Below are positions 42,845 to 47,073 of a stretch of 64,000 bases of DNA, one piece after another. Within the stretch, counting starts at the first letter, position 1; every line of letters begins with the position of its first letter. The translations under genes and the position numbers were made by a program. The DNA comes from Spizellomyces punctatus DAOM BR117. Lineage: Eukaryota. The DNA is taken from the NCBI GenBank assembly GCA_000182565.2, contig KQ257459.1, one strand, 5' to 3'. The notes below the pieces were generated by a model. That model did not search any database and was not told the DNA's origin. It worked only from the letters and a program-made list of their open reading frames with translations.

Positions 42845-44504
42845 ATGACCATGACTGAGGGCGGCGTGCATAATTTCGAGGTCACGACCTATAATAGGCC
42901 AACATACTGTGATGCTTGTGACAAGTTCTTGTGGGGGCTTGTAAAGCAAGGTGCTCAGTGTAAAAGTAGGTATCCTAAAGTATTTAGGCATGACGCTACC
43001 GTTAAGCGCTGAAGCGGTGACTTATTCCCAATTCTCATTGCAGACTGTGGATTCAACGTCCACAAAAAGTGCCAGCACTTGGTGTCAACTGCTTGTAGTG
43101 GCGACTTCGCCCCTGGTAGATACCGGGAGCGGTCAAGCTCAGATCTGGTTCCGAACGGCACGTACATAGATGCCGGTGATTCGGAGCGTACTCTCGTCAA
43201 GCGGAGACAAAGTGACGTGGCTGGGAAAGCGATCACGGCTCCTCGCAAACCCCCAATGAAGCGGTCGGTCACCGCCGGCCCTACGGAGAAAGAAATGAGC
43301 ATTGTTCAGGAATTGATCACAAATACTGCAATGAACTCTGCGGCAATGGAGAAAGCGGCAAAGGATGCTGCTCCACCACTGAACCTCCTGACTACTACAC
43401 CCAAGAACTTTACTCGGTTTGTCGCACGCCTTGGTCCTGCTGTCAACTTCCAAGATGACATTGCAGAAGTGCTGACCTGGCAGAATCCGCCCAAGACTAT
43501 TATCGTGATGGTCACGTACATTTTTCTTTGTGAGTTCATCATCGGCATCCGCAAAAGTCATTCATATTTTGACTCACTCTTACTATTCAGGTATATACCC
43601 AACCCTCCTCATCGTTGCACCTCAAATGCTTCTCATCTACATCATCATGCGCAACTACTACAAGAAGACAAAGAAGGAAGTTGTTGGCCGCAAGACGAGC
43701 GGGAACGTCCAGTACCTCAAAAATATGCAATTCATCCAGAACTCAATGGGGATGTTCTGCGATGTTTACGAAGATGTTAAAAAGAACTCGAAGGCTCTTG
43801 ACTGGTCCAACGAAGAAGAAACGATCCGCCTTCTAAAGCTTGCCGTTGGTTCCATGTTCGGTGTCATCTTTGTCATCCGTGTCATCCCCTTCAACTACCT
43901 CATGCTCCTCGGTGGTGTAAGCGTGTTCCTACAGAACACTGCTCTCTTTCGCGCAGCCTCCACCACCCTCCCCCCGGTGTTGATAAAGAAACTTCAGAAC
44001 CAGGTCGACAACATCCGCGAGGCCATCCGGGAAGCTCGTCGAACTGGAGATGGCAGTGTTGTCACAGTTACTCTGTTTGAAAATCAGAGGTGGTGGGCTG
44101 GTGAGTAAATCTGTCCGCGTCCTGTAGATGGCAGTATTTCGATATTGAATCTTTTGTGTAATGCAGGTCTTGGATGGATTCCTCATCTTCTTCGTTCTGA
44201 ACGTGGCCCCTGGAGTGACGAAACTGGTCAGATCACACGAGCTCCCAAGGAAGTATTCGAGCTGCCAGAAGACGGTGGTGTTTGGCAATGGATGGACGAA
44301 GACTGGCGTCTGGATGTTGGCTGGGCGGATGTGGATGAACAAGGATGGCAGTATACGGACCATGTCTGGGCGAATGCCAAGAGTAAAGCTGCAATGTCGT
44401 CCCTAACTCGTCGTCGAATGTGGGTGCGTAAAATGAGACTCATCAAGCCCCAAGTACCAGCAATTGCTGGAAGTGTCCCAGTTAAGGCGATCAAAGCGCA
44501 ATAA
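42845..44504 (+). CDS. Pex23/Pex30-family peroxin (reticulon-like + DysF) with N-terminal C1 domain
   Basis: C1: HNFEVTTYNRPTYCDACDKFLWGLVKQGAQCK|DCGFNVHKKC; NFTRFVARLGP..EVLTWQNP; DysF: LFENQRWWAGLGWIP..WQWMDEDWRLD..GWQY..LTRRRMWVR. Confidence 0.85.
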
Positions 44505-45100
44505 GCCCGCACGCACCATGTGGCAAGGGTGAGTGGATTCTGGTGATGCCCCATATATGGGAGAGATTGTGGAGTGTTAGAGCTTCTGCGCGTAGACAGG
44601 CCTCATATACGAGCAACTGGCGATAGACAACCTAGACCTCATTAGATCAACTGCCAGAGGGCGTGGGAGAGTTTTTCTTGTACAAATGTTTCGGACGTTT
44701 ATATCTTAGTGCAGGGTCATCATATTTGGTAGTGGTTAAGGCGATGTTGTAGGTTTTAATATTATCGGCGCTCTTTACATTATACTTCGTAGGCGCAGAT
44801 GGTAGGCGCTCTAATAGATATGCCCTTGAATTATACAACTCCTTCCAACTTCATTTGAAATAGCCAGTCCATATTATCCTCCATATTTCTATGCAGACAG
44901 GTTCAGGCTCTTGGATCTGTCTAGGACAATTGTGGTCGACACCAAACATGGCGAAGAACAGATTCAATTTTCACACCAGTTTGAGACATGAATTTATTCT
45001 TTCCCACATACAACATAATTTCTAAACTAGAGACTGTGCACACCACCGCCTTCTTCTCTACAGGCTGCGAAGGTCGCGGTCGAATCTATCGAAAAGAAAG

Positions 45101-45660
45101 CTAAAAAATAGTGAGGGTCAGTAAAACACGCAAACATTTGAAATACGAAAACGCATCCCAAATGGAACCGTCTGCGACCACGTTCTAAGTTGCCTCCCGT
45201 CCCAGCCAGGTCCCAGCAGGTCCCCCCTACCACAGGAACCCCGTAGATACCTGGGCGTCACTATTGGGACAACCCAAACACAGTACACTCAGAGCAGTAC
45301 CCATCTACCCATTCATCGACGATCGAGCACTAGACTCCGATGTTGCAAGGCCCCAGCAGGTTCCACTACCACAAGAACTACCACACACAGGAACCCCGAA
45401 GATACCAGGAACACCTATTGACCTAGTCTCAAATCGCTCGGTGGGTTACTCTTGGCAGGTAGGACAAACCGTAAGATCCCGTAGGCTGCTAGACTCCCGC
45501 CGTAGCACCCAAGTGCCCAGTCAATACTGACAATACTGATATTGGGCCTAGCCGTCGTCCGGGTCGCAGCGAATGCCCCTCCTGTGAAGGAAGCCTTGCA
45601 ATGTCCTCCCGCCCTCACCTTAGTGTAGTATGAGTCGCGTCTTGAAGGATCGGTTGGTGA
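45101..45660 (-). ncRNA. Putative structured non-coding RNA of unknown family (~510-nt folded core 45111-45618)
   Basis: TATAAAAA about 30 nt upstream; no credible ORF; 5' and 3' ends pair over ~23 bp; nested helices rich in G-U pairs on this strand; three hairpins with a repeated module; followed by T6-AG. Confidence 0.6.
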
Positions 45661-45687
45661 GAAGGGGGGCAAGCGCGAGAGGGCCCC

Positions 45688-45695
45688 TTTTTATA
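45688..45695 (-). promoter_or_regulatory. TATA box of the putative ncRNA locus
   Basis: TATAAAAA followed ~30 nt later by a pyrimidine-rich CTTCTCA initiator-like site. Confidence 0.55.
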
Positions 45696-45884
45696 GCGCG
45701 TAATTTGCTACGCCATGCGATTGGAATTATTTGTTGTCATGGTTCCCAAAAAGTTGATATGCCCAAATTTAAATATGTCATGTGATATGTTGAATTGACT
45801 TACCTCAGCGGCCCCACATATTTGACTCACTCGGGATGAGGTCACCCTAACCTTCACCATTTTGCAGCGGAAAGTGCAACCAAG

Positions 45885-47073
45885 ATGTCTTTCATTAGCG
45901 GGCAAACTCAGTGGTTTCAAAAGGTAAGTAAGAATGCCGGAGTACGGACGAGGTGTCGACGCTCTCTGTTCCGGCTTGTCTTCACCAAGGCCGATTTGAC
46001 GGACAGGTGTTGGCACTATAGGTGATCACCCTCCCAGCAAAACCTCGAGGCTGTCATTTAGTTACGTGAGTTCGTGTTACTCTTATATTCTTGCGGAATC
46101 AGGCTAATACTAGCGCTCAGGCAAGATGTGTTGAGGTACACAGAAGTGCAACTTAAGTTCTGGGTGTTATGACTAACGACGCGTGCGACATGGCGGAAAC
46201 GGATATCAGACAGGTGTGTCAGTTGGGGAATACTAAGCGTGCCGTAGTAGCATATTTAATGTATGGTACTTTCCTTAGATTCCAGAACTCAAATCCTTCA
46301 AAGTCGGTATGGCGAACTTCTTCCGTGAGTTGAACCCTAGTGACGATCTAGTTGTCGAACTTCTTATCGATTCATCGGTATTACTAGTGCAACACACTTC
46401 CGCAGCTTTAACTATCAACGAGAATTATGGTACGTTCTATCAGGAAGCGTGGGGTTATGGTTGCTGACAGGGATACTTTTTGTGCAAAAAGATTCAGATG
46501 TAAGGTAAAGGACGTTGTGACCACGCTGTGCGGTCGGTCTTTGATGAAGATGTTGTATTAGGGTTGATATGGAAATGATGCTGAACCGATTGGCACCGGA
46601 GGAGGCACCCTACTGCCATACGGTATGTAGTACGTTCTGTACCCCTTTTTGATACGCGTGATCTAATGTGATATCTATTAGATGGAAGGTGACATAGGCT
46701 GTTATATATTGATTGGTCTTTCCGCTATATTCACACGACCACTCCGGAAACGTGTTGACAGGTTCTGATGACATGGTAAGATTATTCAAACTGGCAATCA
46801 TGGAAGCAGTATCTGCTGGCACAGACATTTGCTAATGCCCAACTCAAAAGCCGGGCCATGTGAAGTCCTCCTTGCTGGGAGTATCTTTGAACATTCCAGT
46901 CAGCAAAGGATCGCTTGCTCTTGGGTAAGCAACATACCCATGTCTTTACTGACGGGAAGAAATTGACCGCGTCGTTTATCAGAACTTGGCAAGGGATCTG
47001 GTTTTGTGAAGCGAGGAATCACGGAGGAGCAAGACAATGTGTGGTGACTATTCAAGGCGTAGCAGATAAATAG
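45885..47073 (+). CDS. yjbQ: YjbQ/UPF0047 family protein, 149 aa in 12 exons
   Basis: Exons 45885-45923, 46022-46065, 46121-46135, 46210-46213, 46279-46324, 46388-46429, 46492-46504, 46562-46622, 46682-46688, 46762-46775, 46851-46924, 46983-47073 sum to 450 nt and give WFQKVITLPAKPRGCHLVT..QHTSAALTINENYDSDVRVD..HTMEGSDDMPGHVKSSL..LGTWQGIWFCE. Confidence 0.9.

What the first reader, a model, noticed from the sequence alone, without database searches (positions are those of the whole stretch)
45184..45553. Three hairpins repeat one internal-loop module inside the RNA
Hairpins at 45553-45484, 45436-45320 and 45278-45184 each show stem-(C)CAAUA...(G)GGA-stem with different but complementary flanking stems (CUAGGC/GUCUAG, CUAGGU/GUCUAG, GUUGUC/GGCAAC). 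The last two also share GGUAUCUnCGGGGUUCCUGUG...GUGGUAG..GGrACCUGCUGGG. Conserved loops on varying stems suggest multivalent protein- or ligand-binding sites (sponge or scaffold).
Basis: partly seen in the sequence, partly recalled or inferred. Interest (0 to 1): 0.75.

Follow-up and report, generated by a model that had tools for sequence, protein, structure and literature searches.

The report
Repeated hairpins inside a long fungal intron
The three look-alike RNA hairpins are real, but they lie inside an unusually long, often unremoved intron of a small non-coding fungal gene that matches no known RNA family, and what they do is still unknown.

Summary
Three minus-strand hairpins each carry stem-CAAUA...GGA-stem (3 sites in 518 nt; 0 of 5000 shuffles gave 2 or more). 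HP2 and HP3 share long identical blocks. New here: RNA reads show that all three lie inside a 518-nt GT..AG intron (45618-45101, minus strand; 102 junction reads). The host is a short polyadenylated transcript with no ORF: TATA-like box ~45695-45688, 5' end ~45646, poly(A) at 44980, exons ~28 and 121 nt. The intron is often retained, since intronic depth next to exon 2 is 71.5 against 90 on the exon, and intron-only contigs occur in other runs. The intron ends are strongly complementary (ddG -27.0 against -5.6 +/- 3.1 for shuffles, 0 of 300). This helix pairs the 5' splice site with the stretch just after the branch point, so the hairpins form a closed, extruded domain. No Rfam family matches, there are no snoRNA boxes, and the window holds no other copy. 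No orthologues could be fetched, so function is inferred only. Best reading: a tandemly multiplied structured unit in a facultative, zipper-closed intron of a host-like lncRNA, possibly a multivalent binding platform. An introner-like relic or neutral repeats remain live rivals.

The parts
45688..45695 (-). TATA-like box (TATAAAAA), about 42-49 nt upstream of the mapped 5' end
   Evidence: Read from the sequence. The 5' end is placed.
45619..45646 (-). Exon 1, about 28 nt. The 5' end is approximate.
   Evidence: depth rises at 45648-45578, the X3 contig ends at 45646, there are loose ends at 45641 and 45644, and the joint lies at 45619.
45101..45618 (-). 518-nt spliceosomal intron (GUGAGG...UUUUUUAG). 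It is often retained and contains all the hairpins.
   Evidence: the joint 45100<->45619 skips 518 nt, with ends CT..AC on the plus strand (GT..AG on the minus strand), seen in 102 reads from 15 start positions. One search confirms length and ends.
44980..45100 (-). Exon 2, 121 nt, ending at the poly(A) site. An AAUAAA lies at 44998-44993.
   Evidence: 30 reads carry a loose T16 run before 44980.
45484..45553 (-). Hairpin 1 (HP1): module CUAGGC-CCAAUA...GGGA-GUCUAG. It is the most decayed copy.
   Evidence: model R1: 48.3 bits.
45320..45436 (-). Hairpin 2 (HP2): module CUAGGU-CAAUA...GGA-GUCUAG plus the shared apical blocks.
   Evidence: 81.8 bits.
45184..45278 (-). Hairpin 3 (HP3): module GUUGUC-CCAAUA...GGGA-GGCAAC plus the shared apical blocks.
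   Evidence: z -2.2; 95.3 bits.
45135..45164 (-). Fourth hairpin (HP4): a 13-bp stem with a UUUU loop, a branch of the closing helix. It lacks the module.
   Evidence: mean pair probability 0.96. In the second copy the changes at 45144 and 45147 keep the stem (mapped by hand).
45562..45619 (-). 5' arm of the intron-closing (zipper) helix. It includes the 5' splice site GGUGAGGG (45619-45612).
   Evidence: helices 45619-12:45117-10 (p 0.99), 45606-01:45129-24, 45599-95:45134-30 and 45569-62:45179-72. Searches show the complementarity is far beyond shuffles.
45110..45179 (-). 3' arm of the intron-closing helix. [quoted passage not shown]
45117..45123 (-). Branch-point-like UACUGAC, with its A 17 nt upstream of the 3' splice site.
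   Evidence: Read from the sequence. The match to the fungal branch consensus is from recall. The branch itself was not mapped.

Best explanation
SHOWN
- The window is fungal-like. The Pfam families found in its ORFs are Pex24p, RasGEF, an AAA ATPase and a succinate dehydrogenase-type flavoprotein.
- The three hairpins lie in the middle of a 518-nt GT..AG intron of a small gene on the minus strand.
- That gene has a TATA-like box, a 5' end near 45646 and a poly(A) site at 44980.
- Its two exons (about 28 and 121 nt) contain no usable ORF.
- Both the spliced RNA (about 149 nt) and the unspliced polyadenylated RNA (667 nt) exist.

SHOWN BY COMPUTATION ONLY
- The first ~60 nt and the last ~80 nt of the intron are mutually complementary far beyond chance.
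- The resulting interrupted helix pairs the 5' splice site GUGAGGG with CCCUCAC, which lies just after the branch point.
- The helix also carries a fourth, 13-bp hairpin.
- HP1-HP3 therefore form a closed domain extruded from a zipper-like stem.

INFERRED
- HP1-HP3 are paralogous copies of one structured unit. HP2 and HP3 are clearly paralogous; HP1 looks like an older, truncated copy.
- The unit has been kept at the RNA level. The loop letters CAAUA/GGA and several apical blocks are identical between copies. The basal stem has changed on both sides while staying paired. The linkers retain no similarity.
- The gene works like a non-coding host gene whose payload is the intron.
- The outer part of the closing helix acts as a zipper that makes such a long intron spliceable.
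- The innermost part of that helix masks the 5' splice site and the region next to the branch point, which favours retention.
- The repeated internal loops are most likely multivalent binding sites for an unidentified protein. Splicing then decides whether this platform stays on a capped, polyadenylated RNA or is released as an intron.
For: Anatomy
- 102 junction reads support the joint 45100<->45619, with GT..AG ends on the minus strand.
- 30 reads carry a poly(A) tail at 44980.
- First mates are sense. This was calibrated on the plus-strand Pex24p-like gene and on the orientation of the splice sites.
- There is no ORF.

Retention
- Minus-sense depth is 71.5 at 45152-45222, against 90 on exon 2, in a 3'-biased library.
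- An X3 contig runs unspliced from 45646 to 45151.
- The contigs of X6 (45230-45594) and X8 (45148-45303) are intron-only.

Closing helix
- Pair probabilities are 0.83-0.99 for the inner helices and 0.65 for CUGCGACC/GGUCGCAG.
- Intron 5' end against intron 3' end: ddG -27.0 against -5.6 +/- 3.1 for shuffles, 0 of 300.
- Wider segments: ddG -34.9 against -11.3 and -12.9, 0 of 300 in each control.
- 10 of the 53 pairs are G-U, and the signal is weaker on the plus strand (z -3.65).
- The intron alone has z -2.13, with 2 of 100 shuffles as low.

Repeated unit
- 0 of 5000 shuffles gave two or more module sites.
- 3 of 6 basal pairs changed on both sides, and all cells are paired.
- HP2 and HP3 are identical in 60 of 82 columns with clustered matches, and no linker pair scores above its shuffle mean.

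Precedents
- Zipper stems and extruded multi-helix domains are established in long yeast introns (PMC12350175, passages read).
- Non-coding host genes exist in a filamentous fungus (PMC2780460, passages read).
Against: - No orthologue was available, so conservation of the loops and true phylogenetic covariation are untested.
- All 'covariation' comes from three paralogous copies within one molecule, and the structure was derived from those same copies.
- The 667-nt RNA as a whole is no more stable than its shuffles (z -0.30, 37 of 100).
- The fold proposed for HP1 is disfavoured, and the basal stem of HP2 loses to a competing local hairpin in the full-length fold.
- A second co-expressed copy or allele carries C-to-G (minus strand) at 45268. 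This breaks the closing pair of the HP3 basal stem (10 of 18 reads).
- A loose-end consensus at 45180 hints that the second copy may differ strongly within HP3 (29 reads, agreement 0.63).
- The plus strand also shows significant end complementarity, so part of the signal is a DNA-level inverted repeat.
- No binding protein, ligand or processed product is known.
- Expression is moderate, not sponge-like (depth about 90 against about 50 on the neighbouring 3' UTR).
- The 3'-biased library cannot give a splicing ratio.
Confidence: 0.4

Rival explanations
1. Introner-like or transposon-derived intron. On this reading the 518-nt intron is, or descends from, a mobile structured intron, with terminal inverted repeats and internal repeats as relics of the element. 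The hairpins would then have no function of their own.
For: - The intron is very long for a filamentous fungus. The neighbouring intron at 46212-46276 is 65 nt.
- It is more stable than shuffles (z -2.13).
- Its ends are inverted repeats, significant on both strands.
- Introner-like elements are described as longer than regular introns and as having stable predicted structures (PMC3609843, passages read).
- Hypoxylaceae sister stwintrons have terminal inverted repeats of 45-55 nt (PMC8469720, abstract read).
- A second copy about 97-98% identical is expressed.
Against: - The window holds no other copy (blastn; model R1 with filters off).
- The second copy also shares exon 1 and the first 29 nt of exon 2. 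This looks like duplication of the gene, or an allele, rather than mobility of the intron.
- The host is a tiny non-coding gene, whereas introner-like elements were described in protein-coding genes.
- 10 of the 53 closing pairs are G-U, and the minus strand scores much better.
- I saw no target-site duplication at the ends of the inverted repeat (reading).
Confidence: 0.2
2. Neutral tandem duplications. On this reading replication slippage or unequal exchange multiplied a segment of a long intron. The similarity reflects recency or gene conversion, and the hairpins are what any G+U-rich sequence folds into.
For: - HP2 and HP3 are plain direct repeats spaced 139-155 nt apart.
- The whole RNA is not unusually stable (z -0.30), and HP2 alone has z -0.38.
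- HP1 and HP2 have almost the same stem, as expected for simple copies.
- The second copy tolerates a broken pair at 45268.
Against: - Divergence is not uniform. Perfect blocks alternate with unalignable stretches (199 of 10000 permutations).
- The linkers between the units show no similarity at all.
- The HP3 basal stem has three double-sided changes and still pairs 6 of 6.
- Three modules in the same register are not expected by chance.
Confidence: 0.2
3. Precursor of processed small RNAs. On this reading the host-gene layout exists to deliver intron-derived small RNAs, either microRNA-like RNAs cut from the hairpins or a non-canonical snoRNA-like RNA.
For: - The layout is that of a non-coding host gene, with tiny exons and a large structured intron.
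- Such hosts are known in Neurospora crassa (PMC2780460).
- Hairpin-derived small RNAs are reported in many fungi (search listing only).
- Intron-only contigs occur in two other RNA-type runs (X6, X8).
Against: - No C box is found even with one mismatch. CUGA occurs only at 45292 and 45121. No ACA follows any hairpin at the required place.
- No Rfam family scores at E up to 10.
- The hairpins are interrupted by many loops.
- No small-RNA data could be examined.
Confidence: 0.12
4. DNA-level regulatory repeats. On this reading the repeated blocks, which include CCAAT-containing motifs, are transcription-factor sites of an intronic or downstream promoter element. They could serve this gene or the divergent plus-strand gene that starts near 46127.
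For: - Two of the three modules contain CCAAT on the minus strand.
- The repeats lie 100-460 bp downstream of one 5' end and about 600-950 bp from a divergent one.
Against: - The third module has TCAAT.
- Compensated G-U-containing stems flanking each motif have no meaning for DNA binding.
- The pairing signal is asymmetric between the strands.
Confidence: 0.05

Closest known systems
Zipper stems and extruded structured domains of long Saccharomyces cerevisiae introns (PMC12350175; the RPS17B and RPL7B examples are named in the listings)
   Same: Complementary segments downstream of the 5' splice site and upstream of the branch point shorten the effective distance between them, and multi-helix domains are extruded between the two segments. 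Here CUGCGACC (45569-62) pairs with GGUCGCAG (45179-72), and two further helices do the same.
   Different: The helix here runs on over the 5' splice site itself and over the stretch after the branch point, which a splicing-enhancing zipper should not do. The host is a non-coding gene of a filamentous-type fungus, not a ribosomal protein gene. The structure is predicted, not probed.
Introner-like elements and symmetrical sister (stw)introns of fungi (PMC3609843, PMC8469720)
   Same: A canonical spliceosomal intron that is much longer than its neighbours, has a stable predicted structure, and has terminal inverted repeats able to make the intron double-stranded at its ends.
   Different: The defining high copy number could not be tested. 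There is no further copy in the 64-kb window. The intron lies in a non-coding gene. It carries an internal array of three related hairpins, which the passages I read do not describe for those elements.
Non-coding snoRNA host genes (UHG/gas5-like), as found in Neurospora crassa (PMC2780460)
   Same: A Pol II gene with a TATA-like box, small exons without coding potential, splicing and polyadenylation, and alternative processing. The intron looks like the part that matters.
   Different: No C/D or H/ACA boxes are present and no Rfam snoRNA family matches. There are three related hairpins in one intron, rather than one snoRNA per intron.
Multivalent repeat lncRNAs that bind one protein many times (for example the Mmi1-binding meiRNA of fission yeast; recalled, not looked up)
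   Same: A short motif repeated several times in one non-coding RNA.
   Different: The motifs here are structured internal loops rather than linear motifs. There are only three. They are intronic. No binding partner is known.

Membership tests
Spliceosomal (U2-type) intron | GT..AG ends with spliced reads across the joint | tested here: met
   the joint 45100<->45619 has GT..AG ends on the minus strand, with 102 reads from 15 start positions. A further 15 loose-end reads carry exon-1-like sequence.
Spliceosomal (U2-type) intron | Branch-point motif and pyrimidine tract before the 3' splice site | tested here: met
   UACUGAC lies at 45123-45117 and UAUUUUUUAG at 45110-45101. The consensus is recalled, and the branch itself was not mapped.
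Box C/D snoRNA | C box (RUGAUGA) near the 5' end and D box (CUGA) near the 3' end, joined by a terminal stem | tested here: not met
   no C-box candidate even with one mismatch anywhere in the 667-nt RNA. CUGA occurs only at 45292 and 45121.
Box H/ACA snoRNA | Hairpin, H box (ANANNA), hairpin, then ACA three nt from the 3' end, with large guide pockets | tested here: not met
   ACA occurs only at 45626, 45604, 45585, 45343 and 45037, and none follows a hairpin. The internal loops are only about 4-7 nt per strand.
Any Rfam family (TPP riboswitch, self-cleaving ribozymes, RNase P/MRP, SRP, snRNAs and others) | Covariance-model score | tested here: not met
   No hit at gathering score in the whole window. 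No hit at E up to 10 within 44970-45660.
Introner-like elements | Tens to hundreds of near-identical copies in unrelated genes of one genome | not testable with these tools
   No genome is held for this window. Within the window there are no other copies. One further expressed copy or allele is seen in the reads.
Introner-like elements | Longer than regular introns, with a stable predicted secondary structure | tested here: met
   The intron is 518 nt against 65 nt for its neighbour. Its z-score is -2.13, and the pairing of its ends has z -6.9.
Zipper-stem intron | A stem of at least 6 bp linking the region after the 5' splice site to the region before the branch point | tested here: inconclusive
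   Such stems are predicted with probability 0.65-0.90 and are far beyond shuffles. There is no probing data, and the linker-length rule of PMC12350175 (42-85 nt) was estimated by hand only.
Kink-turn (L7Ae/Snu13 site) | Tandem sheared G-A pairs, meaning GA on both strands next to a 3-nt bulge | tested here: not met
   The 3' strand has GA before the stem. The 5' strand (CCAAUAG or CCAAUAU) has no GA in the required place (reading). The consensus is recalled.
MicroRNA-like RNA precursor | Discrete Dicer-sized small RNAs from one arm of the hairpin | not testable with these tools
   No small-RNA library was available, and the single read-laying run was used on other runs.

The most novel reading that the evidence does not exclude
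The intron is a new class of eukaryotic riboregulator. Three tandem copies of one internal-loop aptamer, held in a closed domain by a helix that masks the 5' splice site, would sense a protein or small ligand cooperatively. That would switch the RNA between splicing, which destroys the platform, and retention, which keeps a stable polyadenylated scaffold. It would be a splicing-gated, multivalent sensor in a fungal non-coding gene, with no relative in Rfam.
Probability: 0.08. Interest if true: 0.85.

Novelty: new variant of a known kind. Interest (0 to 1): 0.45.

Why it matters
Introns in filamentous fungi are normally very short. A 518-nt intron with paired ends, sitting in a gene that has no coding capacity, suggests that the intron itself is the product. 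If the repeated loops are kept in related species, this would be a new structured RNA element in fungi. It would also be a compact model for how RNA structure gates intron retention, and a defined bait for finding the protein that binds it. If it turns out to be an introner-type relic instead, it documents such an element in a non-coding gene with an internal hairpin array. That bears on how new introns arise. Either outcome can be decided with a few genome searches and one probing experiment.

Tried and rejected
- Known RNA families. Rfam gave nothing at gathering score and nothing at E up to 10 inside the locus. ARAGORN found no tRNA or tmRNA.
- snoRNAs. No boxes were found.
- Coding. The spliced RNA has no ORF. 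The first AUG of the unspliced RNA is at 45316. Pfam finds nothing in the ORFs that overlap the locus on either strand. Plus-sense read depth across the locus is about 0.
- Relatives elsewhere.
  - No genome is held for this window.
Its similarity to the window is confined to the 21-nt pattern, and the sequence around it reads as an ordinary protein-coding stretch. I took it for a chance match.
  - Earlier findings of this scan, looked up by place and by sequence, returned nothing.
  - The collections of prokaryotic genomes, phages and plasmids were not searched, because they cannot hold a fungal orthologue.
Model R1, built from the three copies, finds only those three in the window (next best E 1.3).
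- Pairing of exon 1 with exon 2. It is predicted in the MFE but is no better than shuffles (z -1.0, 46 of 300), so I make no claim on it.
- Telomerase RNA, U3 with an intron, a Pol III transcript ending at the T-run, and kink-turn or TPP-like motifs. I considered these from recall while reading the sequence. I dropped them because the defining boxes are missing and Rfam is silent.
- Runs X3, X6 and X8 show essentially the window's own sequence (0-1 differences within the intron interior). They give no comparative information.

Full report
**1. The observation**

I coded the module as follows: a 6-bp stem with G-U allowed, 0-2 nt, CAAUA, 30-130 nt, GGA, 0-1 nt, then the complementary arm.

- It occurs three times, with CAAUA at 45544, 45420 and 45266. 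The arms are CUAGGC/GUCUAG, CUAGGU/GUCUAG and GUUGUC/GGCAAC.
- Of 5000 dinucleotide shuffles of the 518-nt segment, 41 had one site and none had two or more.
- CAAUA itself occurs 3 times against about 0.55 expected.
- The other ~127 kb of both strands of the window hold three such sites, which is chance level. The pattern was chosen after seeing the data.

HP2 and HP3 share long direct-repeat blocks (families D1, D3, D4; alignments). In a global alignment 60 of 82 ungapped columns are identical and the matches are clustered (199 of 10000 permutations reach the run statistic). HP1 shares little beyond the module. The linkers between the hairpins share nothing: every local score is at or below its shuffle mean.

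The basal helix pairs in 18 of 18 cells, and 3 of its 6 pairs are changed on both sides. All of these changes are in HP3 compared with HP1/HP2. HP1 and HP2 have nearly the same stem (20 of 500 shuffles reach the values; the structure was derived from these same sequences).

Folding support is mixed:

| Hairpin | Result |
|---|---|
Pair probability is 0.56-0.74 inside the whole RNA. |
| HP2 | Five of the six basal pairs have probability 0.75-0.99 when folded alone (the sixth 0.03); about 0 in the whole RNA, where its 3' arm prefers a local hairpin. |
| HP1 | The proposed stem is 4.3 kcal/mol worse than its MFE. |

**2. What the locus is**

The window looks fungal. Pfam finds Pex24p, RasGEF, an AAA ATPase and a succinate dehydrogenase-type flavoprotein in its ORFs. 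No genome is held for it.

I laid four public runs on 44300-46400 (runs chosen). In RNA run X19, first mates are sense. They lie on the plus strand over the 3' end of the plus-strand Pex24p-like gene, and coverage there is confined to the last ~400 nt, so the library is 3'-biased.

Over the finding, the reads are minus-sense and show the following:

- A joint between 45100 and 45619 skips 518 nt. Its ends are CT..AC on the plus strand, which is GT..AG on the minus strand. It is seen in 102 reads from 15 start positions.
- 30 reads carry a T16 run before 44980, which is a poly(A) tail on a minus-strand RNA. AAUAAA lies at 44998-44993.
- Depth collapses upstream of about 45648, and an X3 contig ends at 45646.
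- TATAAAAA lies at 45695-45688.

The gene is therefore: exon 1 about 45646-45619, intron 45618-45101, exon 2 45100-44980. The intron begins GUGAGG, has UACUGAC at 45123-45117, and ends UAUUUUUUAG. The spliced ~149-nt RNA has no ORF. All three hairpins are intronic.

**3. The intron is often retained**

Minus-sense depth by segment:

| Segment | Depth |
|---|---|
| Exon 2 | about 90 |
| 45152-45222 (intron) | 71.5 |
| 45223-45293 (intron) | 16 |
| Further into the intron | 4-10 |
| Bin containing exon 1 | 54.5 |

In a poly(A)-anchored library this means that polyadenylated molecules still carry the intron. The fall in depth with distance from the tail is at least partly the library's 3' bias, so no splicing ratio can be given.

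An X3 contig covers 45646-45151 unspliced. The tool labels X3 'DNA?'. I think it is cDNA, because one of its contigs skips a 65-nt GT..AG segment at 46212-46276 and another ends at 44866, where the Pex24p-like mRNA ends.

X6, a random-primed root metatranscriptome, has a 365-nt contig covering only 45230-45594. X8 has a 156-nt contig covering only 45148-45303. Holes in contig data prove nothing, but neither X6 nor X8 shows the exons.

**4. Architecture of the intron**

The MFE of the 667-nt unspliced RNA contains a nested series of long-range helices:

| 5' arm | 3' arm | Probability |
|---|---|---|
| 45606-01 | 45129-24 | 0.90 |
| 45599-95 | 45134-30 | 0.83 |
| CUGCGACC, 45569-62 | GGUCGCAG, 45179-72 | 0.65 |

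A 13-bp hairpin (45164-52 with 45147-35, p 0.96) branches off this series.

Tests of the complementarity:

- Cofolding the first 63 nt of the intron with its last 82 nt gains -27.0 kcal/mol. Shuffles gain -5.6 +/- 3.1, and 0 of 300 reach the observed value.
- Wider segments give -34.9 against -11.3 +/- 3.6 and -12.9 +/- 4.0, with 0 of 300 in each control.
- Pairing of exon 1 with exon 2 is not significant (46 of 300).
- The plus strand gives a weaker but still significant signal (-21.7 against -10.1 +/- 3.2, 0 of 150). 10 of the 53 pairs are G-U. Part of the signal is therefore a DNA-level inverted repeat, improved on the transcribed strand.
- The intron alone has z -2.13 (2 of 100). The whole RNA has z -0.30.

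The intron is thus predicted to be a closed unit: a zipper-like stem from which HP1-HP3 are extruded.

**5. What it is not**

- Rfam: nothing at gathering score, and nothing at E up to 10 in the locus.
- No tRNA.
- No C box even with one mismatch. CUGA occurs only at 45292 and 45121. No ACA follows a hairpin.
- Pfam finds nothing in the overlapping ORFs.
- No second copy in the window, by blastn or by covariance model R1 built from the three hairpins and run with filters off (next best E 1.3).

**6. Relatives**

None could be obtained.

- The one metagenome scan gave a single hit, L001. Its similarity to the window is confined to the 21-nt pattern, and the flanks read as ordinary coding sequence. 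I took it for a chance match.
- Earlier notes of this scan hold nothing.
- X3, X6 and X8 carry essentially the window's own sequence.

X19 does contain a second copy or allele, in about 25-55% of reads at the variant places. It differs at 45109, 45119, 45122, 45144, +1 nt after 45147, 45181, 45183-45186, 45268, 45283, 45306-7, 45600 and 45605. I mapped these onto the prediction by hand:

- 45144 (U-A to U-G) and 45605 (G-U to A-U) keep their pairs.
- The insertion falls in the loop of the 13-bp hairpin.
- 45600 is a bulge.
- 45122 creates a pair, and 45119 breaks one.
- 45268 breaks the closing pair of the HP3 basal stem.

This is too little to decide anything.

**7. Explanation**

The anatomy in sections 2-3 is shown by reads. 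The closed fold is computed, not probed.

My best reading has confidence about 0.4 as a whole; the anatomy alone is above 0.9. It is a host-like non-coding gene whose long intron is the payload. The outer closing helices act like the zipper stems known from long yeast introns (PMC12350175, passages). The innermost helix masks the 5' splice site and so favours retention. The three paralogous hairpins present one internal-loop motif three times to an unknown binder.

Rivals:

| Rival | Weight | Basis |
|---|---|---|
| Introner-like or otherwise mobile structured intron | 0.2 | PMC3609843 passages; PMC8469720 abstract, |
| Neutral tandem repeats | 0.2 | |
| Small-RNA precursor | 0.12 | |
| DNA-level motifs | 0.05 | |

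Non-coding host genes with alternative splicing are documented in Neurospora crassa (PMC2780460, passages). Here, however, the snoRNA boxes are absent.

**8. Verdict**

The main correction is that the hairpins belong to a facultative intron, not to the mature RNA. The element matches no curated family and has an unusual, statistically solid closed architecture. Evidence for function is confined to one locus in one species. Interest is moderate (0.45). In kind it is a new variant of structured long fungal introns and non-coding host genes.

Noticed in passing
window 45110-45117 with 45612-45619 (minus strand): The 5' splice site GUGAGGG is perfectly complementary to CCCUCAC, which lies immediately after the branch-point-like motif and 10 nt before the 3' splice site. 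Predicted pair probability is 0.99. This helix would have to open for U1 to bind.
   Followed up: partly
window 45119 and 45122 (minus strand G to C and A to C): In the second expressed copy or allele, two changes turn the branch-point-like UACUGAC into UCCUCAC (23 of 51 and 23 of 50 reads). This creates a second CCUCAC. Spliced reads carrying the variant exon 1 are fewer (15 loose-end reads against 102 junction reads). The second copy may therefore splice less well.
   Followed up: partly
window 45072 and 45180 (loose ends): An X3 contig follows the variant form from 45180 to 45072 and then continues for 96 nt unlike the window. 29 X19 reads have an upstream part at 45180 that differs from the window. 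Its consensus suggests that the CCAAU and CGGGAGG halves of the module may be adjacent in that copy, which would mean a truncated HP3. Agreement is only 0.63.
   Followed up: no
window 46127-46324 (plus strand): A divergent, well-expressed plus-strand gene starts near 46127, about 480 bp from the 5' end of the non-coding gene. It has a 65-nt GT..AG intron at 46212-46276 (X3 contig at depth 157; 1 read in X19). A 62-aa ORF piece has no Pfam hit. From recall it resembles the UPF0047/YjbQ family; this was not verified.
   Followed up: partly
window 43013-44866 (plus strand): A Pex24p-like peroxin gene lies in three ORF pieces in different frames, which implies introns (Pfam). Its mRNA 3' end is near 44866, about 115 nt from the poly(A) site of the convergent non-coding gene.
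   Followed up: partly
window 45646-45317 (minus strand): The unspliced RNA has no AUG in its first ~330 nt (the first is at 45316). The spliced RNA has none until about 35 nt before the poly(A) site. This fits an RNA that is not meant to be translated.
   Followed up: no
window 45048-45101 (minus strand): The 3' splice site and the first 10 nt of exon 2 (GCUUUCUUUUC) are predicted to pair with GAGAAGAAGGC within exon 2, giving an 11-bp helix with probability 1.0. The spliced RNA as a whole is not unusually stable (z -0.9).
   Followed up: no
window 46146-46216 (minus-sense reads): Minus-sense depth is 12 in X19, antisense to the start of the divergent plus-strand gene. The origin of these reads is unknown.
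   Followed up: no
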